A stretch of 64,000 bases of DNA from Naegleria gruberi (taxonomy: Eukaryota). The position numbers and the translations under genes are program-made. The stretch is from assembly GCA_000004985.1 (NCBI GenBank), contig GG738865.1, one strand, 5' to 3'. This document shows, in pieces, positions 5,596-48,835 of the stretch (the first letter of the stretch is position 1; each line of letters opens with the position of its first letter). The notes under the pieces are model-generated. The model searched no databases and was not told the DNA's origin. It saw nothing but the letters and a program-made list of their open reading frames with translations.

Positions 5596-8500
5596 ATGAA
5601 GCAACTCTCAACACCTGCATCAAAGGCATTCCGATCCTTGCTTGCAACCTCGAGAACATCATCATCAGGGCTTTTCCGAAAGACTGATGTTGTGTTTGGG
5701 AAGGGAGCCAATAGTTATCAACAAGAACAGTTGAATTCATCAAGGATGATTATCGGAAGTTTGCAAGGTGATTTGAAGAGTAGATTCTTCTCTACATCAA
5801 CAATTCATAGAAACGAGAAGAAGGATGATGAAGATAATAATGATAATGATGAAAAGAAAAAGAAGGAAGAAGAAGAAGAACAGAAGGATGTTTCTGAAAA
5901 GGACAAAACACAAGAAATTAACAAAATGTTCGATGACTTTGAATCATCCAGAAAGAGTGATGAAATTAATGATATTGTAGAGGATAGTGCTGAAAGAATT
6001 GAAGAATTATTATCAGATAAGGTAAATGCTGAAGATGTTTCGGATAAAGCAAGTAAATTGCTTTCTCCTGTTAAGCAAACTGAACAATCAATTACAAGCT
6101 TCTTTGCCACTCCAACTCCACCTTTTGTTGAAATTGTCCCATTGTACAAAAAACCAGCATTCCCTGGAACTATTGTTCCTATTTTCATTACTGATACTAA
6201 ATTCATTCAATCCATGTTGGAGAGTGGTTATCATGATAAATTGGTTGGTCTTTTCCTTGTAAAGGATTTGGAAAAACGTGATCAAATGAAGAATGTTGCA
6301 TCTCTCAATGAAATTGAAACAGTAGGTACTCTTGCAAAGGTTACTAGGGTTGTACCATCTAAAGGTGGTGCTTCAGTAGTATTTGCTGCAATCAGAAGAA
6401 TTAAGGTAACTGGAACTGTAAATAATAGTAAGAGACTTACTGCAAATATTGAAGAAGTGACTGCAAATAAGGTTGACAAGAATGATCTATCAATCAAGGC
6501 TCACGTAATGGAAATTTTCCAACAAATTAAGGAATTTTTATCACACATTGATCCTGTTCAAAGAGAACAATTGAATATGGTATTGGAACAATTGGATCAT
6601 ACTGATCCTGCTGAGTTGTCTGACATTGCTGCCATTCTTTGCTCTCATGATCCTGAAACACTTCAAGAAATTTTACAAACTACAGACATTAGACTCAGAT
6701 TAGTCAAATCTCTTGAGCTCTTAAAGTCTGAAGTTGAAACTAAAAAGATTCAAGAAAAGATTCAAAGAAATCTTGAGGAAAAACTCAATAATCAACAAAG
6801 AAAGATGTACCTCACTGAACAACTTAAAATTATCAAGAAGGAACTTGGTCTTGAAAAGGATGCCAAGGAAGAATTAATGAAAAAATTCTCAGGTGCTGCT
6901 GAACAAATCAAGTCTAGAGATAATGTTCCTGAGCTTGTCAAGACTACATTGCAAGATGAATTGAACAAATTCTCCACTTTGGATCCTCATTCAAGTGAAT
7001 ATACCAATGTAAGAAATTATTTGGATTGGATGACATCTCTTCCTTGGGGATTACGTGGTATTGAAAACTTTGATTTGATCAAAGCTTCCAACATTCTCGA
7101 TCATGATCACTATGGACTCAAGAAGGTAAAGGAGAGAATTTTGGAATTTATTGCAGTTGGTAAATTGAAGAATACCACAAAGGGTAAAATTATTCTATTG
7201 ATGGGCCCTCCTGGTGTTGGTAAGACCTCTATTGGTAAATCTATTGCCTCCTCTTTGGGAAGAGAATTCCACAGATTCAGTGTTGGTGGTTTGACTGATG
7301 TCAGTGAAATTAAGGGACACAGAAGAACTTACATTGGATCTATTCCTGGTAAATTAATTAATATCATGAAACATTGCAAGACTAATAATCCTGTAATTAT
7401 GATTGATGAAATTGATAAATTGGGAAGAAGTCATCAAGGTGATCCAGCCAGTGCTCTCCTTGAAGTATTGGATCCAGAACAAAATAATGCCTTTGTTGAC
7501 CACTATTTGGATGTACCATATGATTTGAGTGATGTCTTGTTTGTTTGTACAGCTAACGTTCTCGACAGTATTCCTGGACCACTTCTTGACAGAATGGAAG
7601 TTTTGAGACTCAGTGGCTATATTCTTGAAGAAAAGGTTCATATCACCAGAAACTACCTCCTTCCAAAAAAGATTGAAGAGACTGGACTTTATGTTCAAAA
7701 GGCTAAGGAGAAGAAACCTTTGCTTACTGTTACAAATGGTCTCATTGAAAAACTAATTAGAGAACATTGTAGAGAAGCTGGTGTAAGAAACTTGGAAAAG
7801 CACATTGAACTGATCTGTCGTAAGGTTGCCTATAAAATTGCCAAATCTAATAAGAAACCAGCTCCAATCCATCTCACTGAAAATGATTTGGAAGAATTGG
7901 TAGGAAAGCCAGTATTCACATCAGATAGATACTACCTCACCACTCCTGTAGGTGTTACTATGGGTCTTGCTTGGACATCAATGGGAGGTTCCACATTGTA
8001 TATTGAAACTATTTCAGAAAAACTAGGTCAAGCCGATATCCCAGTTGCAACTACTGACAATGCCACTACAACTGCATCTGTTCCTATGAATGGCTCACTC
8101 AAGTGTACAGGTTCTATGGGAGATGTAATGAAGGAATCATCATCAATTGCTTACTCCTATGCTAAGAATCATCTGTTCAATGTTGATCCAAAGAATGACT
8201 TTTTCAGAAAGACAAATATTCACATGCACATTCCAGAAGGTGGTGTAAATAAGGATGGACCTTCTGCAGGTGTTACAATGGTGACTTCACTTCTTTCTCT
8301 TGCTCTCAATAAGCCTGTAAGACATAACTTGGCAATGACAGGAGAATTAACCATAACTGGTAAGGTTCTTGCTATTGGTGGTGTTAAGGAAAAGGTTATT
8401 GCTGCCAGAAGATCTGGAATTACAACTGTAATTCTGCCTGCTGGAAACAGAAGAGATTGGGATGAATTGGATGAAAATATCAAGAAGGGATTAGAAGTTC

Positions 8501-8619
8501 ACTTTGCTGATTATTATTCAGATGTTTTCAGAATTTCTTTTGGATATGATGAAGCTGAAAATTTGGAAGCTATTGAAAAGGATCGTCAATCACCAAATCT
8601 TATGGATCTTTCTTCTTAA
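5596..8619 (+). CDS. ATP-dependent Lon protease, mitochondrial type (single exon, 1007 aa) with an N-terminal presequence-like region and a K/E-rich acidic insert
   Basis: Lon N-domain, AAA+ Walker A GPPGVGKTS, Walker B IMIDEIDK, sensor and a C-terminal serine-protease domain (PSAGVTMVTSL, KVLAIGGVKEK). Start ATG at 5596 confirmed. Confidence 0.93.
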   Translation: MKQLSTPASKAFRSLLATSRTSSSGLFRKTDVVFGKGANSYQQEQLNSSRMIIGSLQGDLKSRFFSTSTIHRNEKKDDEDNNDNDEKKKKEEEEEQKDVSEKDKTQEINKMFDDFESSRKSDEINDIVEDSAERIEELLSDKVNAEDVSDKASKLLSPVKQTEQSITSFFATPTPPFVEIVPLYKKPAFPGTIVPIFITDTKFIQSMLESGYHDKLVGLFLVKDLEKRDQMKNVASLNEIETVGTLAKVTRVVPSKGGASVVFAAIRRIKVTGTVNNSKRLTANIEEVTANKVDKNDLSIKAHVMEIFQQIKEFLSHIDPVQREQLNMVLEQLDHTDPAELSDIAAILCSHDPETLQEILQTTDIRLRLVKSLELLKSEVETKKIQEKIQRNLEEKLNNQQRKMYLTEQLKIIKKELGLEKDAKEELMKKFSGAAEQIKSRDNVPELVKTTLQDELNKFSTLDPHSSEYTNVRNYLDWMTSLPWGLRGIENFDLIKASNILDHDHYGLKKVKERILEFIAVGKLKNTTKGKIILLMGPPGVGKTSIGKSIASSLGREFHRFSVGGLTDVSEIKGHRRTYIGSIPGKLINIMKHCKTNNPVIMIDEIDKLGRSHQGDPASALLEVLDPEQNNAFVDHYLDVPYDLSDVLFVCTANVLDSIPGPLLDRMEVLRLSGYILEEKVHITRNYLLPKKIEETGLYVQKAKEKKPLLTVTNGLIEKLIREHCREAGVRNLEKHIELICRKVAYKIAKSNKKPAPIHLTENDLEELVGKPVFTSDRYYLTTPVGVTMGLAWTSMGGSTLYIETISEKLGQADIPVATTDNATTTASVPMNGSLKCTGSMGDVMKESSSIAYSYAKNHLFNVDPKNDFFRKTNIHMHIPEGGVNKDGPSAGVTMVTSLLSLALNKPVRHNLAMTGELTITGKVLAIGGVKEKVIAARRSGITTVILPAGNRRDWDELDENIKKGLEVHFADYYSDVFRISFGYDEAENLEAIEKDRQSPNLMDLSS

Positions 8620-29829: not shown

Positions 29830-31878
29830 TTATTTTAATACGACATCTCCATCAAAGTAAATGTTTGTCATGAATGTAGAGTGTTTTCTATTGATAAGAC
29901 TCTTTTCTTCTTCAAGTTGTTTCTTTGAGGCATAAAGTTCAACAAGTACATCATCAGTCTTAGAGAGTTCTGTAACATACTTGGCTTGTTGTTGCACATT
30001 ACTCTTCAATACATCAATGTTACTTCTCAATCTGGATTGGTTTTCTTGGCATTCTCTAATTTCTGTATCAATTTTATAAATACGTTTCATAATTTCTGAA
30101 GATTCACTTGCCATTCTAATAGACTCTCCTAAAGCAACGATAGTTTCTGAACTGTTGATATATTTTTGATTTGCCTCCAAGGTATCTTGACTAAGCCCAT
30201 TGATTTCAATAGTTTGAATCTGGATAGCCTTCTCAGTAACTTTGAACTTTTTCTTTTCCTTTGGACCAAGACTTCCCCTAAGTCTGTAATATCTATCTGT
30301 AATATCGACAGGCTCGTTACAGTCAAATCCTGAAACTGATTCCAAATCCCAACCATCAATAAACATGTGATCAACAAACACCTCAGGGAATGATTCGTTG
30401 GACTTGTTGTCAAATGAGTATTCAATAGTTTGCTTCTTGTATCTATAAAGAGATATTGTTCCATTCTTAACTAATACATGATGGAATTCTGTTTGACTAG
30501 TGTTGAAATCTTTCAAAACTTCGATGCCCAGTTGAACAGAAATTGGGATAAGATTTTCATCTTGATTCCACATTTGGTTAATGGTTGCTTCACCAACAGC
30601 TAAATCCCTTTCATCTCTGAAAACAATTGAGCCTTCTTCTAAAACATATCCTGTACTATTTTGGAAAACAATGGCACTAAGAGGATTTCCCTTCTTGATG
30701 TTTTCGTTAAAGAGAAGCACTGGCTTGACATCCAATTCCTTTTTCAAAAAGGTGATCATAGCCCTTTGGTTTCTTTTAACATTGATAGGACACTCTATTG
30801 GGAAGAATGACAAGTTATGAGCTGTAGCAATTCTAAAAGCCTTATTTGTTGATGAAGAATCTGACCCAGATGCTCTATCATTATTAGCAACATTAACACT
30901 ACTTCCATTTTCAATATTGTAATCAGCTAAGGTTCTTCCTTCATCCAAAACTTTACCAGAAAATACCAATTTAATGCTTGAGTAAGAAGTACCTTGATAT
31001 TGAGAAACTTTTCTTTTAACTTGATCAATCAATGTAACTGGACTAAATCTAAGACTGAAAGATCCTCCACCAACAGATCTGAAATTAATTGTGATAGATC
31101 CTTCAGATTCAACATTATCAACAATAGATGGAGAACCAGTGACAAGTGTCAAGAGGACATTTTCATAATCTTCTTCTTGATCATTCTCAATCAAAGCAAG
31201 GCATTCAATAGTACCTTTAGTGTGCTCAGTATTCAAGAATTTGAATCGGTATGATGGTTTCCAAGATTTGCTCATTAAGTTATAGTTTGCCTTGACCAAA
31301 TATGGAGAATTACCTTGAGTAAAAACTGAAAGCTTGAATAAATCCTTATTTCTTTGACTGATGTAAGATTCCAAACTGTGTTGAATGAAACCTTGAATAT
31401 TTTGATCATTAAATTTGATTCCGGAAATATTAGACATGACAAATGTTTGAAGACTTGACTTGTTTGTGTAGACAGTCAAGGAAGGAACACTAACTTTGTT
31501 AGCACTGTCCATTATTTCCTCGATACCAAGAAGAATACCAGAAATTACTTCACTACTGCCATGGAATGACAAACTGATTGATGTACCCTTTAAATTCTCA
31601 AGCAAACCAGTCAATGGAGTTGATTGAGGAATATCAATAGTGAGTTTATCAGTTTCTCCCTTTGTATTTTGGTAAGAAATGCTCTTGACATCACAAGATC
31701 CATTCTCAGAACAAGGTACAGTACCAAAAGAAATTGATTTTGTCACATCATCATATGTTGAATTCTTAAAGAAGAGAACTAATTCCGTATCTCCTTGCAC
31801 TTCCTTGCTAACACGTTCAAAGGATGCAAGTCCATTGTTATAGAGAGTAATCTTCTTAAGAGGGATTTGTTGAGACAT
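29830..31878 (-). CDS. Hypothetical protein (about 680 aa) with an internal ubiquitin-like domain and a C-terminal coiled coil
   Basis: Single ORF. ITINFRSVGGGSFSLRFSPVTLIDQVKRKVSQYQGTSYSSIKLVFSGKVLDEGRTLADYNIENGSSVNV resembles a ubiquitin fold. The heptad-rich C-terminus is ...LRSNIDVLKSNVQQQAKYVTELSK... The start is ATG 31878, or alternatively the upstream ATG at 31920. Confidence 0.55.
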   Translation of the reverse strand: MSQQIPLKKITLYNNGLASFERVSKEVQGDTELVLFFKNSTYDDVTKSISFGTVPCSENGSCDVKSISYQNTKGETDKLTIDIPQSTPLTGLLENLKGTSISLSFHGSSEVISGILLGIEEIMDSANKVSVPSLTVYTNKSSLQTFVMSNISGIKFNDQNIQGFIQHSLESYISQRNKDLFKLSVFTQGNSPYLVKANYNLMSKSWKPSYRFKFLNTEHTKGTIECLALIENDQEEDYENVLLTLVTGSPSIVDNVESEGSITINFRSVGGGSFSLRFSPVTLIDQVKRKVSQYQGTSYSSIKLVFSGKVLDEGRTLADYNIENGSSVNVANNDRASGSDSSSTNKAFRIATAHNLSFFPIECPINVKRNQRAMITFLKKELDVKPVLLFNENIKKGNPLSAIVFQNSTGYVLEEGSIVFRDERDLAVGEATINQMWNQDENLIPISVQLGIEVLKDFNTSQTEFHHVLVKNGTISLYRYKKQTIEYSFDNKSNESFPEVFVDHMFIDGWDLESVSGFDCNEPVDITDRYYRLRGSLGPKEKKKFKVTEKAIQIQTIEINGLSQDTLEANQKYINSSETIVALGESIRMASESSEIMKRIYKIDTEIRECQENQSRLRSNIDVLKSNVQQQAKYVTELSKTDDVLVELYASKKQLEEEKSLINRKHSTFMTNIYFDGDVVLK

Positions 31879-32210
31879 TTTTTTTGTTGTTATGATCAAC
31901 ATCTTCGCAAGTAAGTTCATTCTCCTTTTGTAGGCCCAAATGTTAGTGCTTGTGTATGCGATGAACTACAAATGTTGCGCTTGGTGTTGGGGTTGGAACT
32001 CATTACAAAATTGTGCCAAGACAAATGGGTCATCTTTAAAGATAGGATCATCTTTTAAATGATAATAAAATCCTCTTCGCTTACTCCTCTCGAATATTTA
32101 AGGATCGCCAAATTTCGATCTCTTTAGAGAAAATTTACGTTTTGCTTTTTTTTAAAATTGGTGTTTCCTCATCAACATTTGCATCCTCATACAATAAATC
32201 AACAATAAAA

Positions 32211-34915: not shown

Positions 34916-36643
34916 ATGATTTCAAGAAATGGCTCGGATCAACAAAAAATTAGTAAATCATTAAATTCCATTGAACATGATGATGCAGATGAAGAATATT
35001 ATAATGATATTATTGAATTATCTCCGAGTGAATTCATTTCCAAGTATATTGATGATTCAATTTATTTTAATGATGATGCTGTTGATGATTTTAATTCAAT
35101 GGGAATAGAAGAACCAAAAAGAAAAGCAAATTTTCATGATGTTTCAACAGATGTATTGTGTTATATTATTTTGACTTATCTGGATTGGAAGACTGTCTTT
35201 TCAAGTTGCTTGTCTGTGAGCAAGGAGTTTTTCAGAAGAATTGCAAATAATAGACTATTATTTATTAATTTATTTAATGAATTGTTTGTGATGAAACAGG
35301 AAGAAATTGATAGCTTGACATTTAATAGTACATTTAAACACAAAAACTGTCATGTGGAAGATATTGCTCAATATGCAGGGTTTGGAATACCTAATGAACA
35401 TTATCATTTTTGTAGAGATTACGATTATGAGTGGCCAAATCAATCTGAATTTAATGAAATGCACAAGCTTCTAAAAAAGCATTATGTCAATAACAGTAGA
35501 ATGACTGATGCAAAATTGAGATTAATTAGAGAAAGGTGGAATAATGCTATTTCTGTCTATAAAAAGAGTAAGAATATGAAACGAACCACATCTAAAAAGG
35601 AAGAAAACCAAGCTTTACTAAATCTCATCAAGAGAATTATCAAGGATAGATTATTTATGAGAAAGTTCTTTAATAAGGATTTGAAATCAGTGAAAATATG
35701 TCATCTTCACTATTCCCATTTCGTCAAACATGAGAGGTTGGGTTATGAGGAAGCAAGAAATAGATCTGCTAATCAACTTCCATTGAAAGATCAGGTAGAG
35801 CATCTAGTTAATGGAGAAGGCCCATATGAAATGTTTGAGCTCGAGGAAATAGTTATTGGAAACCTCAATAGTGTTTATAATCCTACAGATGAATTTATAC
35901 GTTGTTTTAAAAATTATTCATATGCAGATAGCGAAGGAATAGTTTCGTTTTTAGCGAGTAAGTTTTATTAGAATTAAAATCATTAACAATATCAAGATGA
36001 CATACCCGACAGACAAAAAATGATTTCGACAATCTCAACATATGATATTGAACCAATATTCACAACTTTCCCAAATTTGAAAGCATTTGTGAGTAGAGGT
36101 CACTTTGGAAACATCAGCCATATCAAAAGCATTAACTTGGTTGTGCTAATCTTAACAACAGGTGGCATGGATGCTTCAACATTGAATGGTATTTTAAATT
36201 GTGAATTCCCACAGCTTAAACATTTAGAGTTATGGTTTGGATCGTATGATTATGGAAATTCTATTCATGCAAATGATTTGGAAGAATTGCTTTCTCCTGA
36301 AGAAAATGGAAGATACCCGTTATTGGAATACTTTGGAATCCGTAACTCCCAAAATGTAGATCAGTTTTTAACACCAATAGCTAACTCTAACCTCTTGAAA
36401 AGATTGAGAATTCTTGACTTGTCTCTATGTGGCATGTCCACAACAGGACCTACATTTCTTGACTTCTCTAAAATGTTAGAGAAAAAAACAAGAAGCTCAT
36501 TTCCTCTATTGGAACTAGTAGATATCCATAGAAATTATATTACAAATCAGGATAGAGATGCCATTATTGAAATATTTGATAGACTTGGAATCATAGTTGA
36601 CGTCTCAATCATATATTACAGATATATTGCTGTCGGGGAATAA
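34916..36643 (+). CDS. F-box/leucine-rich-repeat protein; join(34916..35957,35997..36643) with a 39-nt intron
   Basis: F-box DVSTDVLCYIILTYLDWKTVFSSCLSVSKEFFRRI. The GTAAGT...ATCAAG intron is in phase 1. The second exon carries LRR-like LKRLRILDLSLCGMS. Confidence 0.65.
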
Positions 36644-36741: not shown

Positions 36742-39700
36742 TTATTTACTATTCACAAGGTTGAATTTGGACATTGATTTTTCAATCATTTCAGAATCTT
36801 TGGAAAAAGAAATATAATCATCGGTAAATACAAATCTTGAGAAGGTATCTGAAAGATTTAGGATAACATTTTCCATCAATGTTTCAATACATTGAGAGAT
36901 TGAGCTAGTGTCAATCTCTTGACTTTCTTCACAATATTCCTTATACATTTTTGCAAATGACTTACTACAATTCGAAGGAATATTCACTTCCATTATTGAA
37001 CCTGCCTTGACATAATTTTCATAAATATGGGAAATTATTTCACAATTGAAATTTCCATTCTGTTGTTTGATATAGTGGTAGAGATATAAATTCTCAGTTG
37101 AAAATTCCTTCTTACAGAATTGTTCCAACAATGAAGAACCATGGCTATTTCCAAGTAAGGTAAATAATTCCTTATTATCTTCTTCATCTTGAAGTTTTTC
37201 GGCCCCTTTTCTGTTAAAAGTTTTGATTTTGTAAAGAATTGTCATCAATGAGCTGAATCCACCAAATACTAAAATGTAGAACAAAATATAAACTAATTCG
37301 AAAGCAAACGAAGCGTTATCATTAGGCAGTATTCTCACATAGCCTTCCTCTGACTTGTATCTCGATTCTAAAGTGCTCAAACCAAGTGAAATATTCAAAA
37401 TAAGAAAGAAGAAGCTCACAATAAACAAAATCATTTCCCATCTAAAGAATAGAGGTGAATCTTGTGTGAAAATCAAATCTTTGAAAGATCTGTTCTTTGA
37501 TTTGACACAACCAAAAATGAAATCAAAAAGGAATACACAAGTAATCAATGTACCCATGGTAAGAATCATCACTGCATATGAGATTACAACTATATATCCG
37601 AATGTTTCTAATGAAATTGCCTTCACACCAAGTAATATTACCCACAAAGTCCAATAACACAAATTTGCAACACAGAAAACGATCAATGTTCCAATGAAAA
37701 CCTTATTTGAGGTTAGAATTTTCAATACTTTCAATGTTGCATTCTTTGATTTGTCTTCTTTAATGGAAATGAGATCGTAGAAATATTTCAATAATTCGAA
37801 TCTAATAACTTGAATCAGATAGGACAAAATTGCTGTCAAATTGAGAGAATTGGCAAAGATCATGACAATGTTGGCAATTAGAGTTGCTGCCGAATCGGCG
37901 TTCTTACTCTCTTCACTTAAAATGTTTGTTTGACGAATTAATTGGTCAACCAGAACACTTCTCTGAACAATATAAATTAACACGCATTCAACAATCAATG
38001 CAATCATTCCAATATAGGGAGTTGCTAATCTAGAAGCTATTGGTTGACTCTTTCTAAATATGAATAAAGTTATCAAAACCATTAAGGAAATTATTAAATA
38101 GAAAATACCAAAACTAATTTGAGCAAAGTATGTATCAGATAATTGATTCATCACAGAAATGCTTGTTGCTACTCTCTTCTGACCAATAAATGTTGTAAAC
38201 AATGTGGTGTGATTACAAGCACATTCAATAAAACCATCTTGAACTTGGTTGACCAAACAACCTTCACTGCTCCACAATCTAGCTTGTTCATCCCAATAAT
38301 CACAACTATATTCTTCTGATTTGTTGATGGATTTAGACTCAAACGTCAATAAAATAGGTTGTTCCAAATTTGAAAGTTTTACAATTTGATTTTCTTTGTA
38401 AAATTTAAAGTCCATAGCTGAGGAAGAAGCATTTCTGGAATCATTGTAATGATTTTCACCATAATTGATCAATGAAATAGCACATTCTTTATCAAAGGCA
38501 TCGTATCTTGATAGAATTGCATTAGAATCGAATAGAACCTTATTGCTTCCTTGATTAATTGATTTTTGACTGTTTCCTGATTTGTAAATCTTGAATGATG
38601 ATATTATTAAATTAATATTCGTGCTATTGAATTCAATCTTTGGTAATTGTGATAGCGTTGAGTTCACTGACAATTCGCTAATGATTAGTATTTCAGAAAG
38701 TGAATTAGTCAACTTTCTAATATTATCAAAATCAGAAATTAAATTAGACAGTATACCAACTAGTTGTTCAATATCTTGCTTTGGGATCTTGTTTCTGACA
38801 AATCCAAATAGCTGATTCGAATATTGATAAGCAACTTTAGTCACACTTAACAAATCACCAAATTTAGATTCCAAATCGAAAATTACATCCTGATCTAAAA
38901 GGGCATATGTGTTGGTAAGGAATTTCAATAGAAACATGTTGGAAAATTGATTATTCAATAGAAGTTGTTTAACTAGTTGATTATTAAGTTCTTTTGATCT
39001 GTCAAGTGTCATATCTAAGGCAATGCTAGCAAGAATGTTAAAGTTAGAATTGCTATTGATAACTCTATTCATTAATTCAAGATAATTTCCATCAAATTTT
39101 GATATTTTGATAGAAAATGAACTTGTAATTGTCTCAACATTTCCATATTCATCTTTACCAATTATGGAAAGATAATAATTAGACTGTTTTAAAAATGGAA
39201 ATCTAACATTTTGTGTTCTATTATATGAAAAATCAGTAATTCTCATTAATTGTCCCATATAATGCACCCCAATTGCATATTGTAAAGATACAGAGCTGTT
39301 CCAACTATTGATTGTCAAATTGAATACATCTCTAATAGCAACACCTTCCAATGGAGTATTATTGGCGAACAAGTTATTAGAATCGACTGGTTTCATATAT
39401 TGATAAACTGGAATTTCTGAAGAATAGACAATTTCACTTCCCGCCAAATTTGTGAAATTCAAAGAAAATATCAAAGTTCCATATTGGTCAACTGAATTGC
39501 CATTGAATTGAACGAGAAGAGGTGATTTCAAACTAACTTTTTGTAATAAGGTTTCTTGTGCCATTGTCACCATTGAACTTTCGGTCTTTTTCAGATAAAC
39601 TTGTGAATTAATCATGTAATAAATTGACAATGAATACTTGGTTTCACATTTTGATTCACTCAATTTACAATCCTTCATCCATAAACTACTTATTTCATCC

Positions 39701-41283
39701 TTCATTTCAAGTTTTGAAACAATAAATGTATAATCAATAGTATTATTCTTATTGGAAATCAAAACTTGTGGCATTCCCAAAACTGTAAACAAATTATTTG
39801 AAATATTTGTGGGATGTGTGTTACTAGAAACAATTGTCAGGGTGAAATATTGCAGTGTGGAGTTCATTTCTGTGCCTTTCAATGCTTTTGCTTGGAATAA
39901 ATAGGTTCCAGTAAAACTTCCAGAGTTGATTACTAAAATTGGAGATTGAGCATTTGTTGAGTAATTGACCATATTGGAACAATTAAGACATTTCCATTCA
40001 TACGTAAGTAATTCAGTTAATGAACTAAGAATAACCACTTGGGTTGATTGAGAATCATCAATGGTTTCTTCATATTTGCTCAACCAAATATTAAATGTCT
40101 TTACAACAGGATCTGGTTGAGTAGAATTAATACTAGACATTGCAGAACAATCAGTTCCACTAAAACCAGCATTACATACACAATAGTTTTGTAAAATGCA
40201 TGTTCCATTACCTGAACAAACATTTGAATCATTTGACAATTTTCCAAAACAAGTAATGACATCTACATTAGGACTGTTTTGATAACATCTTGTCAAATTT
40301 TGAGTCAAAGAATATCCTGAATTGCATCTGGGTGTAAGTTTTCTTACCCTCTTTTCATCCCTATCAATGAAATAAATTTCTCCTTTCCAAACTTTAACTG
40401 AAATTGGAAATTTCAATGATGAAAGAGTTGCATCCAAATTATCAGCAGTGGAAACGTCAATTTGTGAACCTGCAATGATGGAAATGTTTCCATCTGGTTG
40501 AATTCTCTTAATGAATTTACCAGAAGAAACAAAGAGTTGACCTTGCTCATCCATAAATGAACTTGTTGGTTGGTCAATTGGTTGAAAATGAATTGTTTGA
40601 GAAGATATGTTAACAACATTAATCATGTTAATTCCAATATCTGAAATATAACAAAGTGAACCAGAAATGTGAATATCAACTGGTTGGCTCAAAGCTCCTG
40701 TGGTAATAGCACTTTCGGTCACAATTTTCTTCCAAACTTTTTTTTGTTTCGAATCCAAATAATAAATTGAAGAATCAGCAAGTCCTACTTGAATTCTAAA
40801 CACTTCATTCGATGTGTGAACTTTGGCAGAAGGTAACGTAGTTGAGTTCTCAAAAATCTTAAATACGAAACTTGTTGTCGAATAGAAACTGCCAAAATAA
40901 ATAGCATCTCCATCCATAACAATGCTAGTTAAATTTCCCAACGTGGCCTCACTCATTAAAACTCCAGGAGATGGATAACCAAATGTGGATGTACCAAAAA
41001 GTTTTTGCATGTGTCCAGTGGATTTGTTAATCTTTCGAATATTAAATTCATCCAATAGATAGATATCTCCTGTTTGTTCATGAATGGCTAATTCTTTAGG
41101 ATCATGTAACATGATTTGGGTTGCAAGAGTTGAGTTGTTTGTGTCCATGCTGCCACCACCAGCGATGGTTTCAATTGAGTAAGAAGGTGAAACATATTGT
41201 TGTGCATGTAGTGCCTTGAATGTGGTGAGTAGCATGGCTAAAGTAACTAACACAAGACACATCAAGCGTCCAATACCTTTCAT
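36742..41283 (-). CDS. Giant single-exon receptor (1513 aa), an adhesion-GPCR-like protein fused to RGS. In order it has: a signal peptide, NHL/beta-propeller-like repeats, an EGF-like module, a long extracellular region, a GPS motif, seven TM helices, and a C-terminal RGS domain.
   Basis: Signal peptide MKGIGRLMCLVLVTLAMLLTTFKALHA. EGF-like CSGNGTCILQNYCVCNAGFSGTDC. GPS CDYWDEQARLWSSEGCLVNQVQDGFIECACNHTTLFTTF immediately before TM1. Seven hydrophobic segments. RGS domain LEQFCKKEFSTENLYLYHYIKQQ...YENYVKAGSIMEVNI...FAKMYKEY. Confidence 0.8.
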   Translation of the reverse strand: MKGIGRLMCLVLVTLAMLLTTFKALHAQQYVSPSYSIETIAGGGSMDTNNSTLATQIMLHDPKELAIHEQTGDIYLLDEFNIRKINKSTGHMQKLFGTSTFGYPSPGVLMSEATLGNLTSIVMDGDAIYFGSFYSTTSFVFKIFENSTTLPSAKVHTSNEVFRIQVGLADSSIYYLDSKQKKVWKKIVTESAITTGALSQPVDIHISGSLCYISDIGINMINVVNISSQTIHFQPIDQPTSSFMDEQGQLFVSSGKFIKRIQPDGNISIIAGSQIDVSTADNLDATLSSLKFPISVKVWKGEIYFIDRDEKRVRKLTPRCNSGYSLTQNLTRCYQNSPNVDVITCFGKLSNDSNVCSGNGTCILQNYCVCNAGFSGTDCSAMSSINSTQPDPVVKTFNIWLSKYEETIDDSQSTQVVILSSLTELLTYEWKCLNCSNMVNYSTNAQSPILVINSGSFTGTYLFQAKALKGTEMNSTLQYFTLTIVSSNTHPTNISNNLFTVLGMPQVLISNKNNTIDYTFIVSKLEMKDEISSLWMKDCKLSESKCETKYSLSIYYMINSQVYLKKTESSMVTMAQETLLQKVSLKSPLLVQFNGNSVDQYGTLIFSLNFTNLAGSEIVYSSEIPVYQYMKPVDSNNLFANNTPLEGVAIRDVFNLTINSWNSSVSLQYAIGVHYMGQLMRITDFSYNRTQNVRFPFLKQSNYYLSIIGKDEYGNVETITSSFSIKISKFDGNYLELMNRVINSNSNFNILASIALDMTLDRSKELNNQLVKQLLLNNQFSNMFLLKFLTNTYALLDQDVIFDLESKFGDLLSVTKVAYQYSNQLFGFVRNKIPKQDIEQLVGILSNLISDFDNIRKLTNSLSEILIISELSVNSTLSQLPKIEFNSTNINLIISSFKIYKSGNSQKSINQGSNKVLFDSNAILSRYDAFDKECAISLINYGENHYNDSRNASSSAMDFKFYKENQIVKLSNLEQPILLTFESKSINKSEEYSCDYWDEQARLWSSEGCLVNQVQDGFIECACNHTTLFTTFIGQKRVATSISVMNQLSDTYFAQISFGIFYLIISLMVLITLFIFRKSQPIASRLATPYIGMIALIVECVLIYIVQRSVLVDQLIRQTNILSEESKNADSAATLIANIVMIFANSLNLTAILSYLIQVIRFELLKYFYDLISIKEDKSKNATLKVLKILTSNKVFIGTLIVFCVANLCYWTLWVILLGVKAISLETFGYIVVISYAVMILTMGTLITCVFLFDFIFGCVKSKNRSFKDLIFTQDSPLFFRWEMILFIVSFFFLILNISLGLSTLESRYKSEEGYVRILPNDNASFAFELVYILFYILVFGGFSSLMTILYKIKTFNRKGAEKLQDEEDNKELFTLLGNSHGSSLLEQFCKKEFSTENLYLYHYIKQQNGNFNCEIISHIYENYVKAGSIMEVNIPSNCSKSFAKMYKEYCEESQEIDTSSISQCIETLMENVILNLSDTFSRFVFTDDYISFSKDSEMIEKSMSKFNLVNSK

Positions 41284-41688: not shown

Positions 41689-43509
41689 TCATTGGTCTTC
41701 AGTTTGAAAGTTAAAGTTGTGAGCTTTGATTCTATCGGTCAGTCGAATGCTATCTTGTACGAAATTAATTGGATGAAGCATGTGTAAGTGGAAAATAAGG
41801 TCAGTACCCTTGTCTGGCATTTCTGATGGATCGAAACAAGTTGTGATGAAGGTCAGATACTTTTCTACTTGATCCTGGATCCAATCATTGGTTTCCTCTA
41901 AAGAGGGCATGCATTCGCTCAGCTCTACAACATGTTCCTTGAGGAATGCAATTGAATTGCATGGTTTTTCAAAGGAATTCATCAAGTCTGATTTGACAAT
42001 ACTAAAATTGAAATCCTCATTCTTAATTGGTGTTGCAATTAGTTCCAAAAAATCCATTTTTAAATCTGGGGGAAGTAAATGACTTGTTCTGACCTTATCT
42101 GAGTGTTGCTTTCTATTATTTAGTAATTTCCTCATGTCAATATCCGAAAGTTTGAATAGATTTTCCTGTTCAATATAATAATTATCAAGGAGTATCAAAT
42201 GTAGGCCAATTAATATATCATCTTCGACCAATAATTCATTGCAAGGAAGTTGTGGCAAGATATTTTCCATGAAATAGTTTGCCTTTTCTATCATTTTCAA
42301 CATGCATTTGTGAATCCATTCGAGTTCTTGGGGGTCCAACTGTTTGCTTATTTGAGGAGAAACTCTATTGGCAACTGATTTTAAAAATTCAATATAGAGA
42401 GGAATGGTATTTTCAAAATCAACTGAAAGTTCATTCTTTAAAATTGGCTTTTTCACACAAAATAGGCACTTCTCAAAGAGTTTCAATAGACTAGAGTCTC
42501 TTTTAAACTCTAAACAATGATCAGCATGTGGAATATAGGTATCAATTGTATGTGGTAAACAATTCACGGAAACTAGAATCTTCTTTGTTTGAATTTTGGC
42601 TAATCTTTGCATGAGAATGTGTTGTTCTGGAAGAAATCTCAAATTTTGCAATGGGTCAAAGTTCAAAATCATGAAAAAGAAAGTCTTGTCCTCAGCAGAT
42701 GCAAGCCGGTTAAACTCTTCAATAATTCTTTCTCCAAATAACTCAAATTGGAACATTCCACAAACAAAATATGTCTGCAACCAATCAAGGTCATACCACT
42801 GATTTAACTTTCTTAAGGAATCACTCTCATCTTTGAAATAACTCAATGTTCTACTCATAAATATCTGATTGACAGTATTAGAATCGTATAAAATTATCTT
42901 ATGCCACTTTGAACTAACAAATGAACATTTTTCAATGAGAAATTTGGTATCAATAAACTCAAATATCAAAGCCAACACATGATCTTCGATTGTCAATTTA
43001 AACTTCTTGTCATTTTCACCTGCAATTGATTTCTTCTGACTACTGTATGCAGCACCCTTCCAGATTATATCAATAATTTGCAAAGGATCAAGATAACGGT
43101 CATAAATAGCTTCCAAATCAATATCTATTGAGAGAATATCATTATCCATTCGTGGCACAATTGCTTTATAAGAATTGTCAGCAGAGTTGTGTAATTCAAT
43201 CGAAGTGAATGTCATTTTCATTTCTTCGACACTGTCAAATGTTGCAAATCTCTCTCCATCAACAATTTTCGAATCTCTCATATAGGGTGATTGTTCATCA
43301 TCTATTTCAATGTCTTCACTTGTTTCTCCTCCAACCGAAAGAAAGAGAAAATTATCTAGAGGACTCACATAAGAATCACATGTTGTTGATAATTTAGTAG
43401 GAATTTTGTGATTGAATAACCATTGATCGATGAGTGATGTGGCATTTAAAAATGTTCCTTCTCTGTCATCGTTGAAATCATACCATCCTCCCTCTCCATC
43501 ACACGGCAT
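41689..43509 (-). CDS. Hypothetical protein (606 aa) with an internal F-box-like motif
   Basis: Single ORF. LALIFEFIDTKFLIEKCSFVSSKWHKII resembles an F-box. The rest is unassigned. Confidence 0.5.
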   Translation of the reverse strand: MPCDGEGGWYDFNDDREGTFLNATSLIDQWLFNHKIPTKLSTTCDSYVSPLDNFLFLSVGGETSEDIEIDDEQSPYMRDSKIVDGERFATFDSVEEMKMTFTSIELHNSADNSYKAIVPRMDNDILSIDIDLEAIYDRYLDPLQIIDIIWKGAAYSSQKKSIAGENDKKFKLTIEDHVLALIFEFIDTKFLIEKCSFVSSKWHKIILYDSNTVNQIFMSRTLSYFKDESDSLRKLNQWYDLDWLQTYFVCGMFQFELFGERIIEEFNRLASAEDKTFFFMILNFDPLQNLRFLPEQHILMQRLAKIQTKKILVSVNCLPHTIDTYIPHADHCLEFKRDSSLLKLFEKCLFCVKKPILKNELSVDFENTIPLYIEFLKSVANRVSPQISKQLDPQELEWIHKCMLKMIEKANYFMENILPQLPCNELLVEDDILIGLHLILLDNYYIEQENLFKLSDIDMRKLLNNRKQHSDKVRTSHLLPPDLKMDFLELIATPIKNEDFNFSIVKSDLMNSFEKPCNSIAFLKEHVVELSECMPSLEETNDWIQDQVEKYLTFITTCFDPSEMPDKGTDLIFHLHMLHPINFVQDSIRLTDRIKAHNFNFQTEDQ

Positions 43510-46660: not shown

Positions 46661-48835
46661 ATGGTTTCATCACCTGCCATGATCGACCCACCTTCACCAA
46701 CACAAAATGATACACAGAGTAGTGTATCACAATTTCCGGAGGAGCCCGAATGGTTGAAAACAAGACAGTTTTTAACGCATGATTTTTTAAAAAAGCAAAC
46801 AGGTGAATTGAATGTTGCTCAGGGTTTTTCTCTTGAATCACTCCCATCAAAAGTACAGGAATATATTATTATTGAAGAATTATTAAATTGTTTGATGGGA
46901 TTTGAAGGAAAATATATTAGATGTGTTTCACAAATTGAAACCGATCAAGATTCGTATATGACCACTGAAGAAGGTCTTCCGATCACTGATATCACATTAT
47001 TGGAAACTTACAAATATTCTCTTCTTTGTGAAATCGACTCTTCACTCCATGATATGGTAAATAGAATATTACCACTTTGTGAAAAACATACAAGAGTGTC
47101 TAGTTTTTTGGAAAAAAGATCGGGTTATGGTAATGGTCTTGTTTGTCAGGCATTTTGCTCGGCACTGAGAGCTTTGGAAAAGGAATACCTTATGTTTATT
47201 AATCAATTGGATTTACTCTTCAAACAAGATCAAATATCTCTACAAAAATTATACTATCACCTTCAAACAGGTGCTTGGAAAACAATTGAAATTTTGGATA
47301 GATTGGTTGGAGAAATATTGAAGGATAATGCAAAAGGAGGTTCTTTATTGAATGTGCTTCAAAATGTTTCCAGAGTAATTAGTTCAGATGAGAAAACTCA
47401 AAAGTTATTCAATTTTATTTTTACCAAATCGTGTGCTCCCTATTTTGAAATGATAGAGTCGTGGATTTTTAAGGGTGAAATTGAGGATTTATACGAAGAA
47501 TTTTTCGTAGAAGAAAATAAGAATGTAAGAAAGGAACAGCTACTTGAAGATTTTAACTCATTATATTGGGATTCCAAATACTCCATAACACGAGAGGTGC
47601 CATTCTTCTTAACAAAGCTTAGTGATAAGGTTTTAACTTGTGGTAAATATTTGAGTTTACTCAAAGAATGTGGCCAGCGAGTGGATAAACGTATTGTAGA
47701 TAGAATTAATTTTGCTGATGGGAAAGCAATATCAATAATTGAAGAAGCTCACAATCATGCTGCCAAGCAAGTTTTGGATTACTTCTTTGGAGATGTCAAA
47801 GTAATGGATCGTTTAAAGTCCATTAAGTATTATTTTTTATTCGATCATGGTGACTTTTTCGTGCACTTTATGGACACAGCAGAACAAGAGAATGAACTTG
47901 CCAAGAAGAGTACGGATGTTTCGTTATCGAAACTTCAATCCTCGATAGAATTTGCTGCCAAAACTTGCTCGATACCCAACGACGAATATAAGGATAATCT
48001 CACCTGTAGTTTGAAACCTATGAATTTGGCCAACTTTTTAAGTATTATCAAACAGCTTTCCTCATCCAACAGACTGGATGCAGCAGTGCTAGAACAGCAA
48101 CAATTACAAGAATCTCCAATTGAGGGCTATGAAGCATTCTGTTTAGAATATAAGGCAGAGTGGCCAATGTCTCTCATCATCAATAGGAAGAATATTACCA
48201 AATATCAAATTTTATTCAGACACTTATTCTGCTTTAAGTATGCAGAAAGATGCCTCTGTAATACTTGGATTAATCACAAATTTTCAAAGGAGCTGAAATT
48301 GGGGACATCCTTCTCAACATTTTATGCATTAAGGCACAAGATGATACATTTCATTCAACACTTTTTATCATATGCTCTCATAGAAGTTGTTGAAAAGAAT
48401 TGGGTAGAAATGGAAAAGAAAATCAAAACAGCAACAAGTATAGATGAAGTTATCAAGAGTCACGATCAATTTTTGGATTCTTCACTGAATGGCTGTTTAG
48501 TTTCTTCCACTGATGCCTTCAAGTGCTTGACCAAGCTTGTATCTTGTTGCAACAGTTTTTCAAAATACATGAATCAATTCTCCACTGTAATTAGTAATAA
48601 TTTGAATGAAGATGTTCAGGAATCAGATGAACTAACAGATAAATTCGAAAGAAGACGTGAAAGAATAGAACAAGCATCTGAACTGGCTAAAAACACAGTC
48701 CAAGATGACAATTATAGACGAGCCATTTTAAAATTCACCCAAGTATTCGAGACAACCCTTAATCAACTCAGATCTCATACAGCTCACATTTTTACATTAT
48801 CCATGAGTTTTGACAAGGAATCAACTCACTATTAA
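46661..48835 (+). CDS. Gamma-tubulin complex component (Spc97/Spc98/GCP family, GCP2-like), 724 aa, single exon
   Basis: Conserved GCP N-terminal grip region (QEYIIIEELLNCLMGFEGKYI) and C-terminal grip (DYFFGDVKVMDRLKSIKYYFLFDHGDFFVHFMD...). The length and architecture are typical of the family. Confidence 0.8.
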   Translation: MVSSPAMIDPPSPTQNDTQSSVSQFPEEPEWLKTRQFLTHDFLKKQTGELNVAQGFSLESLPSKVQEYIIIEELLNCLMGFEGKYIRCVSQIETDQDSYMTTEEGLPITDITLLETYKYSLLCEIDSSLHDMVNRILPLCEKHTRVSSFLEKRSGYGNGLVCQAFCSALRALEKEYLMFINQLDLLFKQDQISLQKLYYHLQTGAWKTIEILDRLVGEILKDNAKGGSLLNVLQNVSRVISSDEKTQKLFNFIFTKSCAPYFEMIESWIFKGEIEDLYEEFFVEENKNVRKEQLLEDFNSLYWDSKYSITREVPFFLTKLSDKVLTCGKYLSLLKECGQRVDKRIVDRINFADGKAISIIEEAHNHAAKQVLDYFFGDVKVMDRLKSIKYYFLFDHGDFFVHFMDTAEQENELAKKSTDVSLSKLQSSIEFAAKTCSIPNDEYKDNLTCSLKPMNLANFLSIIKQLSSSNRLDAAVLEQQQLQESPIEGYEAFCLEYKAEWPMSLIINRKNITKYQILFRHLFCFKYAERCLCNTWINHKFSKELKLGTSFSTFYALRHKMIHFIQHFLSYALIEVVEKNWVEMEKKIKTATSIDEVIKSHDQFLDSSLNGCLVSSTDAFKCLTKLVSCCNSFSKYMNQFSTVISNNLNEDVQESDELTDKFERRRERIEQASELAKNTVQDDNYRRAILKFTQVFETTLNQLRSHTAHIFTLSMSFDKESTHY

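What the first reader, a model, noticed from the sequence alone, without database searches (positions are those of the whole stretch)
36742..41283. 4.5-kb single-exon receptor: an adhesion-GPCR-like protein with a C-terminal RGS domain
A single protein carries a signal peptide, NHL-like propeller repeats, an EGF-like module, a canonical GPS motif (C..W...W..GC....C.C.H.T.F) immediately before seven TM helices, and a cytoplasmic RGS domain (FEQFCKKEFSTENLYLY...). GPS-7TM is the adhesion-GPCR hallmark. An RGS domain is normally a separate GTPase-activating regulator of G-alpha. Fusing the two gives a self-contained receptor-plus-GAP unit. Such fusions are known in plants (AtRGS1) and some fungi and protists (Aspergillus GprK, as I recall), but not combined with this GAIN/GPS-like ectodomain. 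It is also by far the longest intronless ORF in the window.
Basis: partly seen in the sequence, partly recalled or inferred. Interest (0 to 1): 0.8.

Follow-up and report, generated by a model that had tools for sequence, protein, structure and literature searches.

The report
Naegleria adhesion-like receptor with built-in RGS
This is a real single-exon gene of the amoeba Naegleria gruberi encoding a large surface receptor that joins an adhesion-GPCR-style ectodomain and cleavage motif to seven membrane helices and a G-protein "off-switch" (RGS) domain; the gene is already annotated, and this class of protein has already been published for the sister species N. fowleri.

Summary
Window 36742-41283 (minus strand) is one uninterrupted 1513-aa ORF. 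It encodes, in order: a signal peptide, an NHL-like propeller, an EGF module, a divergent REJ-like domain (new here), a GAIN domain with a GPS motif, seven TM helices and a C-terminal RGS domain.

It is 100% identical to N. gruberi XP_002677827.1, named [quoted passage not shown].

The GPS-7TM-RGS module is a conserved unit. The 7TM core has 87 relatives among 1.84 billion representative proteins. Nearly all carry C-x-C-x-H-T-T-x-F-x-x-F just before TM1 and an RGS after TM7. Every relative whose source I looked up is from Naegleria or Willaertia, or from an unassigned metagenome contig.

Bosch et al. 2022 (PMC9283941) described 28 "7TM RGS" proteins in N. fowleri, several with GPS motifs and EGF/lectin ectodomains. 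They showed GAP activity for three of the RGS domains.

The "adhesion GPCR" label is only half right. The GAIN/GPS is homologous to animal adhesion-GPCR GAIN domains. The 7TM is a generic GPCR fold with no detectable 7tm_2 affinity.

Most likely function: a surface receptor-GAP for G-alpha. Verdict: a new member of a known kind, of moderate interest.

The parts
36742..41283 (-). Complete single-exon gene: 1513 codons plus stop. It is 100% identical to N. gruberi XP_002677827.1 / EFC45083.1 / UniProt D2VDZ0.
41203..41283 (-). Putative signal peptide, aa 1-27 (MKGIGRLMCLVLVTLAMLLTTFKALHA). The cleavage position is approximate.
   Evidence: Hydropathy peak 2.19 over aa 1-28. No dedicated signal-peptide predictor was available.
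40324..41196 (-). NHL-like beta-propeller region, aa ~30-320.
   Evidence: TEN_NHL 23.0 bits, below its 27.1 cut-off. Teneurin-like NHL repeats in PDB, E 1.4e-6. NHL-annotated homologs, E down to 1.9e-34.
40144..40251 (-). EGF-like module, aa ~345-380, with six Cys.
   Evidence: Pfam EGF_2 27.0 bits against a cut-off of 22.1. Cys positions.
39109..40056 (-). Divergent REJ-like domain, aa ~410-725. Pfam does not recognise it.
   Evidence: A profile seeded from the Pfam-verified REJ domain of family member P0062 reaches this region at 36.6 bits, E 1.5e-11, before this protein entered the profile. hhalign gives E 7e-4 for aa 593-732. Direct Pfam and BLASTP are negative.
38677..39084 (-). GAIN subdomain A (helical), aa ~734-869.
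   Evidence: AlphaFold helices 34-169 of the model. Profile matches to ADGRL3 and ADGRG1 GAIN domains. Foldseek matches to GAIN crystal structures.
38182..38637 (-). GAIN subdomain B (beta-sandwich), aa ~883-1034. It includes the GPS motif (aa 993-1034) and the last strand, T1027-LFTTFIG.
38203..38211 (-). Putative autoproteolysis triplet H1025-T1026 | T1027. Animal consensus is H-L | T/S.
   Evidence: H, T(+1), F(+3) invariant and F(+6) in 71 of 73 scored family motifs (74 found); T(-1) in 70 of 73. Cleavage itself was not tested.
37225..38160 (-). Seven-transmembrane GPCR-fold domain, aa ~1042-1353. Family-specific motifs: RKxQPxxSR, TPYxG, QVxRF/Y, YWxLW, DxPLxFR, VFGG.
36766..37188 (-). 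Cytoplasmic RGS domain, aa ~1366-1506, with conserved G-alpha-contact motifs: EFSTEN (1393-1398), EVN (1432-1434) and DTFSR (1479-1483).

Best explanation
The gene encodes a member of a heterolobosean (Naegleria/Willaertia) family of surface receptors. In this family a variable adhesive ectodomain sits on a conserved stalk and transducer.

In this protein the ectodomain is an NHL propeller plus an EGF module. The stalk and transducer are a REJ-like domain, a GAIN domain with GPS, a seven-helix GPCR-fold domain, and a cytoplasmic RGS domain.

Shown:
- the architecture;
- the topology (ectodomain outside, RGS inside);
- homology of the GAIN/GPS to animal adhesion-GPCR GAIN domains;
- homology of the RGS to canonical R4/R7/RZ-type RGS boxes, with every classical G-alpha-contact residue conserved across the family.

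Inferred:
- The RGS accelerates GTP hydrolysis on one or more Naegleria G-alpha subunits at the plasma membrane. Paralogous N. fowleri RGS domains do this in vitro.
- Engagement of the ectodomain changes how effectively the GAP reaches G-alpha. The signal could be particle, matrix or cell contact, or shear. The change could run through the 7TM conformation or through internalisation.
- The receptor therefore tunes the lifetime of G-alpha-GTP, following the logic of plant AtRGS1.

More speculative: the strictly conserved H-T|T-x-F-x-x-F-[ILV] strand is a cleavable tethered peptide. It would couple loss or movement of the ectodomain to the 7TM domain, as the Stachel sequence does in animal adhesion GPCRs.
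For: - One ORF, 7 TM helices, signal peptide; 27 of 34 N-glycosylation sequons lie N-terminal of TM1.
- GPS, EGF and RGS are above the Pfam cut-offs.
- The family profile hits RGS10/18/5/16/7 at E~1e-12, and the ADGRG1 and ADGRL3 GAIN domains at 3e-10 and 5e-10.
- The AlphaFold model (pLDDT 79.9) shows a helical subdomain, a beta-sandwich ending in the TLFTTFI strand, 7 TM helices and a 9-helix RGS.
- Foldseek: CD97 GAIN+7TM at E 4e-10, BAI3, BAI2, CELSR1 and latrophilin GAIN at 1e-9 to 1e-7, and RGS1/8/16 with TM-score 0.72-0.80.
- Residues invariant across 19 diverse members: C994, W1004, G1008, C1009, C1021, C1023, H1025, T1027, F1029, F1032 in the GPS; E1393, E1397, N1398, E1432, N1434, D1479, R1483 in the RGS. 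By my own recall of RGS4 numbering, these correspond to E83/E87/N88, N128 and D163/R167.
- 87 relatives of the 7TM core, nearly all with the GPS before and the RGS after.
- Sources looked up are N. gruberi, N. fowleri and Willaertia magna, plus N. lovaniensis and metagenome contigs.
- N. fowleri 7TM RGS2-4 RGS domains are GAPs for Nf G-alpha 2, 3, 5 and 7 (PMC9283941).
Against: - No biochemical or expression data exist for this protein.
- The GPS has Thr, not Leu, at position -1, so autoproteolysis is unproven.
- The 7TM shows no sequence or preferential structural relationship to adhesion/secretin receptors. An adhesion-GPCR-style tethered-agonist mechanism therefore cannot be carried over by homology.
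- The conserved hydrophobic pattern of the last GAIN strand may only reflect packing inside the beta-sandwich.
- How ligand binding would regulate the GAP is unknown even for the N. fowleri proteins.
- Inter-domain geometry in the model is uncertain (pTM 0.58).
Confidence: 0.75

Rival explanations
1. It is a true G-protein-activating receptor (a GEF) of the adhesion-GPCR type. Autoproteolysis at H-T|T and shedding of the N-terminal fragment would expose TLFTTFI as a tethered agonist that activates G-alpha through the 7TM. The fused RGS would then act as a built-in terminator, giving short, self-limited pulses.
For: - A GAIN/GPS directly abuts TM1, as in adhesion GPCRs.
- T(+1) and F(+3) are invariant, F(+6) is present in 71 of 73 members, and +7 is I/L/V in 66 of 73; this mirrors the animal T-x-F-x-x-L-M Stachel pattern, which I recall from memory.
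- There is an invariant Arg at the cytoplasmic end of TM3 (QVxRF/Y) and a conserved TM6 start (PLxFR).
- Naegleria also has slow-exchanging G-alpha subunits that would need a GEF (PMC9283941).
Against: - No homology of the 7TM to class B2.
- No 7TM-RGS protein has been shown to have GEF activity.
- Position -1 is Thr rather than Leu.
- Strand conservation can be structural.
Confidence: 0.2
2. It is mainly an adhesion or particle-recognition molecule. The RGS-homology domain would be a non-catalytic scaffold, like the RH domains of GRKs or axin, rather than a GAP.
For: - Large adhesive ectodomain (NHL, EGF, REJ-like).
- Some RGS-homology domains have lost GAP activity (de Mendoza et al. 2014, PMC3971589).
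- The Pfam RGS score of this protein alone is only just above its cut-off (25.8 against 23.9).
Against: - All canonical G-alpha-contact residues are invariant across the family.
- The family profile matches catalytic R4/R7/RZ RGS boxes at ~1e-12, but axin and GRK2 only at 0.03-0.05.
- Paralogous N. fowleri domains are active GAPs.
Confidence: 0.08
3. It is a gene-model or reading artefact: two adjacent genes (a receptor and an RGS protein) that happen to be read as one frame.
For: No transcript data were available here.
Against: - No stop codon anywhere in 4539 nt.
- Only about 20 residues separate TM7 from the RGS.
- The identical order recurs in more than 70 homologs from at least four species.
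- The RefSeq model equals the ORF.
Confidence: 0.01

Closest known systems
Naegleria fowleri '7TM RGS' proteins (Bosch et al. 2022, J Biol Chem 298:102167; PMC9283941)
   Same: - Same family. The N. fowleri protein P0021 (CAG4715528.1) shares 50% identity over the 7TM core, E 2.5e-73.
- Same order: EGF-type ectodomain, GPS, 7TM, C-terminal RGS.
- The RGS domains of three members are proven GAPs.
   Different: - This is an N. gruberi member with an NHL-propeller head and an unusually short third intracellular loop. It has not itself been studied.
- In the passages I read, the paper does not mention a full GAIN fold, a REJ-like stalk, the H-T-T variant of the cleavage site, or the lack of class B affinity of the 7TM.
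Animal adhesion GPCRs (class B2; e.g. ADGRL3/latrophilin-3, ADGRE5/CD97, ADGRG1/GPR56)
   Same: - A GAIN domain with a four-Cys, two-Trp GPS placed directly before TM1, homologous by profile and by fold.
- Modular adhesive ectodomain with EGF.
- GPCR-fold 7TM.
   Different: - The 7TM is not detectably 7tm_2.
- H-T|T instead of H-L|T/S.
- The C-terminus carries an RGS domain, so the default output is G-alpha deactivation rather than activation.
Arabidopsis AtRGS1 and other 7TM-RGS proteins (plants, Trichomonas, chytrids, filastereans, ichthyosporeans; fungal GprK-type)
   Same: - Seven TM helices followed by a cytoplasmic RGS box.
- Proposed logic of a membrane receptor that regulates a GAP acting on self-activating G-alpha (PMC9283941, PMC3971589).
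   Different: - By my own knowledge, AtRGS1 has only a short extracellular N-terminus, with no GAIN/GPS and no adhesive modules.
- Homology between the two 7TM domains could not be tested here.
Polycystin-1 / PKDREJ / sea-urchin REJ proteins
   Same: A REJ domain followed by GAIN/GPS as the membrane-proximal stalk. Several family members have a Pfam-significant REJ domain. This protein has a divergent one.
   Different: - No PLAT domain after TM1.
- 7 TM helices, not 11, and no channel-like domain.
- GPCR fold.
GPR158/GPR179-RGS7-Gbeta5 complexes (class C orphan receptors)
   Same: - A 7TM receptor that positions an RGS GAP at the membrane.
   Different: - The RGS is recruited in trans, not fused.
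- No GAIN/GPS.
- The structural similarity is at the level of the generic GPCR fold only.

Membership tests
Heterolobosean GPS-7TM-RGS family (Naegleria '7TM RGS') | Seven TM helices followed by a C-terminal RGS domain on one polypeptide | tested here: met
   Seven hydrophobic segments at aa 1051-1353. AlphaFold shows 7 TM helices and then a 9-helix RGS. Pfam RGS is above its cut-off.
Heterolobosean GPS-7TM-RGS family (Naegleria '7TM RGS') | Sequence homology of the 7TM core to N. fowleri and N. gruberi members | tested here: met
   phmmer against 1.84e9 proteins found 87 relatives, the top ones at E 1e-73 to 1e-60. Looked-up sources are N. fowleri, N. gruberi and Willaertia magna and N. lovaniensis.
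Heterolobosean GPS-7TM-RGS family (Naegleria '7TM RGS') | GPS motif immediately N-terminal of TM1 | tested here: met
   Pfam GPS E 1e-7. The family motif C-x-C-x-H-T-T-x-F-x-x-F is present as CACNHTTLFTTF.
Heterolobosean GPS-7TM-RGS family (Naegleria '7TM RGS') | RGS domain is a GAP for Naegleria G-alpha | not testable with these tools
   Contact residues are conserved. Activity has been shown only for N. fowleri paralogs (PMC9283941).
Adhesion GPCR (class B2) | GAIN domain (helical subdomain A plus beta-sandwich subdomain B) containing the GPS, directly before TM1 | tested here: met
   Profile hits to ADGRG1 (3e-10) and ADGRL3 (5e-10) GAIN domains. AlphaFold topology. Foldseek hits to CD97, BAI3, BAI2, CELSR1 and latrophilin GAIN structures, E 4e-10 to 1e-7.
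Adhesion GPCR (class B2) | 7TM domain belongs to the secretin-like 7tm_2 family (PF00002) | tested here: not met
Adhesion GPCR (class B2) | Autoproteolysis at H-L|T/S and a tethered-agonist (Stachel) function | not testable with these tools
   The sequence is H-T|T-L-F-T-T-F-I. His(-2), Thr(+1) and Phe(+3) are invariant in the family, but position -1 is Thr. Cleavage and agonism need experiments.
AtRGS1-type 7TM-RGS | 7TM plus a C-terminal RGS box | tested here: met
AtRGS1-type 7TM-RGS | 7TM homologous to the AtRGS1 7TM | not tested
Of the 87 relatives of the 7TM, 74 carry the family GPS motif, and all named sources among the 16 relatives looked up are Naegleria or Willaertia. The other 71 were not looked up, so plant sequences among them are unlikely, not excluded.
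Polycystin-1 / PKDREJ | REJ domain preceding GAIN/GPS | tested here: inconclusive
   Pfam REJ is absent from this protein. A profile seeded from a Pfam-verified REJ of a family member reaches aa 424-723 at E 1.5e-11. hhalign gives E 7e-4 but a probability of only 27%.
Polycystin-1 / PKDREJ | PLAT domain after TM1 and 11 TM helices with a channel-like C-terminal part | tested here: not met
   No PLAT hit. Exactly 7 TM segments. GPCR fold.

The most novel reading that the evidence does not exclude
The GAIN domain's conserved H-T|T-x-F-x-x-F-[ILV] strand is a cleavable tethered ligand. It would gate a non-class-B 7TM domain whose output is a fused GAP. In that case the GAIN-to-7TM 'tethered peptide' switch is not an invention of the animal adhesion/secretin lineage. 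It would be an older or independently assembled module that in Heterolobosea controls G-protein deactivation rather than activation, on a polycystin-like REJ-GAIN stalk.
Probability: 0.2. Interest if true: 0.7.

Novelty: new member of a known kind. Interest (0 to 1): 0.35.

Why it matters
7TM-RGS proteins are thought to be the receptors of the "self-activating G-alpha" signalling mode that dominates outside animals and fungi. How any of them senses a signal is still open, even for AtRGS1 and the N. fowleri proteins.

This N. gruberi member offers a tractable, non-pathogenic model with a clear and testable switch candidate: the GAIN/GPS strand. It also shows three things.
- The family's 7TM cannot be filed under class B.
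- The stalk is polycystin-like (REJ plus GAIN).
- The cleavage triplet is a fixed H-T-T variant.

These points bear on the origin of GAIN-coupled receptors. As a discovery, however, the architecture itself is already published and the gene is already annotated.

Tried and rejected
- Word-indexed database searches with the GPS-7TM-RGS part and with the 7TM alignment returned only 1 and 2 hits. They were useless for tracing distribution. The exhaustive phmmer search was used instead.
- The apparent extension of the ADGRL3 match into TM1 disappears when the GAIN/GPS part is removed. I therefore treat it as spill-over from the GPS alignment.
- The mid-ectodomain (aa 386-780) gave nothing by direct Pfam or by BLASTP against REJ-containing proteins P0004 and P0062. 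Only the iterated profile and hhalign link it to REJ.
- The AFDB Foldseek library was not available. I therefore could not look for the three-domain architecture outside Heterolobosea by structure.
- Anantharaman et al. 2011 and Bradford et al. 2013 may mention Naegleria GPS-7TM-RGS proteins, but they are not held in the library.
- There is no second family copy in the window (tblastn), so it is not part of a tandem array.
- The flanking ORFs are not paralogs of each other.

Full report
**1. The observation**

Window 36742..41283 on the minus strand is a single ORF of 1513 codons starting with ATG. It is the longest ORF in the window; the next is 1007 aa. The window is about 32% G+C throughout. 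By my own estimate a random frame there meets a stop roughly every 13 codons, so an open run of 1513 codons is not chance.

The protein is 100% identical over its full length to a RefSeq/GenBank protein of Naegleria gruberi (XP_002677827.1 / EFC45083.1, UniProt D2VDZ0). That protein is named [quoted passage not shown]. The window is therefore N. gruberi nuclear DNA, and the public gene model is the same single exon.

Neighbouring ORFs are ordinary eukaryotic genes: a Lon protease, a gamma-tubulin complex component and a ubiquitin-like protein. There is no second copy of any part of this gene in the window.

**2. Domain anatomy**

| Pfam family | Residues | Score vs cut-off (bits) |
|---|---|---|
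| GPS | 993-1030 | 32.8 vs 22.5 (E 1e-7) |
| EGF_2 | 352-379 | 27.0 vs 22.1 |
| RGS | 1375-1486 | 25.8 vs 23.9 |
| TEN_NHL | — | 23.0 vs 27.1 (below cut-off) |

- The NHL assignment is nevertheless backed by repeated matches to the NHL propeller of a solved teneurin-like protein (E 1.4e-6). It is also backed by many database homologs annotated with NHL/SGL repeats (E down to 1.9e-34).
- Hydropathy shows an N-terminal signal-like segment (aa 1-28) and exactly seven hydrophobic segments between aa 1051 and 1353.
- 27 of 34 N-x-S/T sequons lie before TM1, and basic residues follow TM1 and TM7. This fits an extracellular N-terminus and a cytoplasmic RGS.
It is not right for the cleavage triplet, which reads H1025-T1026|T1027 rather than H-L|T/S.

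**3. It is a family, and the module is conserved**

- An exhaustive phmmer search with the 7TM core alone (aa 1040-1365) against 1.84 billion representative proteins found only 87 relatives at E<=1e-3. Most of them are 1000-2600 aa long.
- Local scans show that nearly all carry the same region before the 7TM and an RGS after it.
- In 74 members the motif is C-x-C-x-H-T-T-x-F-[SA]-[TA]-F-[ILV]-[EQD]-[YF]. His, Thr(+1) and Phe(+3) are invariant, Phe(+6) is present in 71 of 73, and Thr(-1) in 70 of 73.
- Sources that could be looked up are N. gruberi, N. fowleri and Willaertia magna, N. lovaniensis, and unnamed metagenome contigs.
- In an alignment of 19 diverse modules (A1) the invariant residues are the GPS scaffold and the RGS positions E1393, E1397, N1398, E1432, N1434, D1479 and R1483.
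- Aligned to human RGS1/5/16, these fall in the motifs EFS-E-EN, EVN and D-S/T-x-x-R-F. By my own knowledge these are the G-alpha-contacting residues of RGS4 (E83/E87/N88, N128, D163/R167).
- Ectodomains vary between members: long EGF arrays, large NHL propellers, REJ domains.
- This member has the shortest TM5-TM6 loop in the alignment.

**4. Homology and fold of the three conserved parts**

The family profile matches solved RGS boxes of the R4, R7 and RZ types at about 1e-12. It matches axin and GRK2 only at 0.03-0.05. It matches the GAIN domains of ADGRG1 (3e-10) and ADGRL3 (5e-10).

An AlphaFold model of aa 701-1513, built on that alignment (mean pLDDT 79.9), shows:
- a helical subdomain;
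- a beta-sandwich whose last strand is L1028-FTTFIG;
- seven TM helices;
- a nine-helix bundle.

Foldseek against the PDB gives:
- CD97 GAIN+7TM first (E 4e-10);
- then the GAIN crystal structures of BAI3, BAI2, CELSR1, latrophilin-1/3, GPR110 and GPR56;
- RGS1/8/16/17 at TM-scores of 0.7-0.8.

So a complete GAIN domain, not just a GPS motif, is present, and the RGS is a canonical box.

**5. The 7TM is a GPCR fold but not demonstrably an adhesion/secretin one**

- None of the 19 members hits PF00002, or any GPCR Pfam family, at E<=1.
- A 7TM-only profile (A2) hits no PDB sequence at E<=10.
- In Foldseek nothing reaches E 1e-3, and the first adhesion GPCR is at rank 35.
- A defining feature of class B2 membership was therefore tested and not met. 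The protein works like, and is built like, an adhesion GPCR on the outside. I do not file it as one.

**6. An extra finding: the stalk is polycystin-like**

- The 375 residues between the EGF module and the GAIN domain have no Pfam hit.
- One family member (P0062) has a strong Pfam REJ domain (E 3e-31) at the equivalent position.
- A profile iterated from that domain spreads to most family members, always just before the GAIN domain. It reaches aa 424-723 of this protein at 36.6 bits (E 1.5e-11 for 110 sequences) before this protein was included.
- hhalign of the single sequence against the first-round REJ set gives E 7e-4 over aa 593-732, but only 27% probability.
- I call it a divergent REJ-like domain with moderate confidence.
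- REJ followed by GAIN/GPS is the stalk of polycystin-1/PKDREJ. The rest of that family's definition (PLAT domain, 11 TM helices) is absent.

**7. What is already known**

- Bosch et al. 2022 (PMC9283941) report 28 "7TM RGS" proteins in N. fowleri.
- They state that a number of them have GPS motifs and EGF/lectin ectodomains "reminiscent of the adhesion GPCRs".
- They show that the RGS domains of Nf 7TM RGS2-4 bind transition-state G-alpha and accelerate GTP hydrolysis on Nf G-alpha 2, 3, 5 and 7. This activity depends on the switch-I glycine.
- They leave open whether and how extracellular cues alter GAP activity.
- de Mendoza et al. 2014 (PMC3971589) list 7TM-RGS architectures in many bikonts, chytrids, filastereans and ichthyosporeans.
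The gene's own database name already points to the GPS.

**8. Mechanism**

- Best supported: a surface receptor-GAP. The architecture, topology and homologies are shown. GAP activity is inferred from residue conservation and from the paralogs. Regulation by the ectodomain is inferred by analogy with AtRGS1 and adhesion GPCRs.
- The sharper version is possible but unproven. In it, H-T|T cleavage and the T-x-F-x-x-F-[ILV] strand act as a tethered ligand for the 7TM. Two things weaken it. The same conservation could be purely structural. And the 7TM is not homologous to the receptors in which that mechanism is established.
- Rivals, weighed in the structured fields: a true activating GPCR with a built-in terminator, a non-catalytic RGS scaffold, and a gene-model artefact. 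The artefact is effectively excluded by the continuous ORF and by the conserved order in more than 70 homologs.

**9. Verdict**

The feature is real and was correctly read. It is a new, unstudied member of a known, published kind. Interest is moderate. The architecture is striking and could make the open question "how do 7TM-RGS proteins sense signals?" testable through the GAIN switch. A specialist in protist G-protein signalling would not be surprised by it.

Noticed in passing
window 39109-40056 (-), aa ~410-725 of the same protein: The Pfam-silent mid-ectodomain appears to be a divergent REJ-like domain, giving a polycystin-1-like REJ-GAIN stalk. Several family members (e.g. P0062) have a Pfam-significant REJ domain at the same position. 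The passages of the N. fowleri paper that I read do not mention this.
   Followed up: partly
window 38203-38211 (-); family members P0020-P0104: The family's GPS cleavage triplet is fixed as H-T-T (Thr at -1 in 70 of 73 members, Ala in 3) instead of the animal H-L-T/S. Whether this variant self-cleaves is unknown.
   Followed up: partly
window 37480-37530 (-), the TM5-TM6 loop, aa ~1262-1278: This member has by far the shortest third intracellular loop in the family alignment. The other members carry 40-70 extra residues there, rich in Ser, Thr and Lys.
   Followed up: no
window 34916-35971 (+) and 36020-36643 (+): Two same-strand ORFs separated by 48 nt. The first ends within a GTAAGT-containing stretch, so they may be two exons of one gene joined across a short intron. 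Neither has a Pfam hit. The first ORF has a sequence that looks F-box-like by eye.
   Followed up: partly
window 41689-43509 (-): A 606-aa ORF lies 405 bp upstream of the receptor gene on the same strand. It has no Pfam hit and a stretch that looks F-box-like by eye. It is not a paralog of the 34916-35971 ORF (BLASTP negative).
   Followed up: partly
window 5596-8619 (+), 29830-31920 (-), 46661-48835 (+): Ordinary housekeeping genes: a Lon protease, a ubiquitin-like-domain protein with DUF4139, and a gamma-tubulin complex component. They confirm a compact, intron-poor eukaryotic context.
   Followed up: no
fold search of the module model (ranks 10, 11 and 13): Chains from axonemal doublet-microtubule structures (8j07_k3, 9fqr_Hn, 9e5c_5n) score E 1e-4 to 5e-6 against the GAIN+7TM+RGS model. 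I did not determine which part of the model they match.
   Followed up: no
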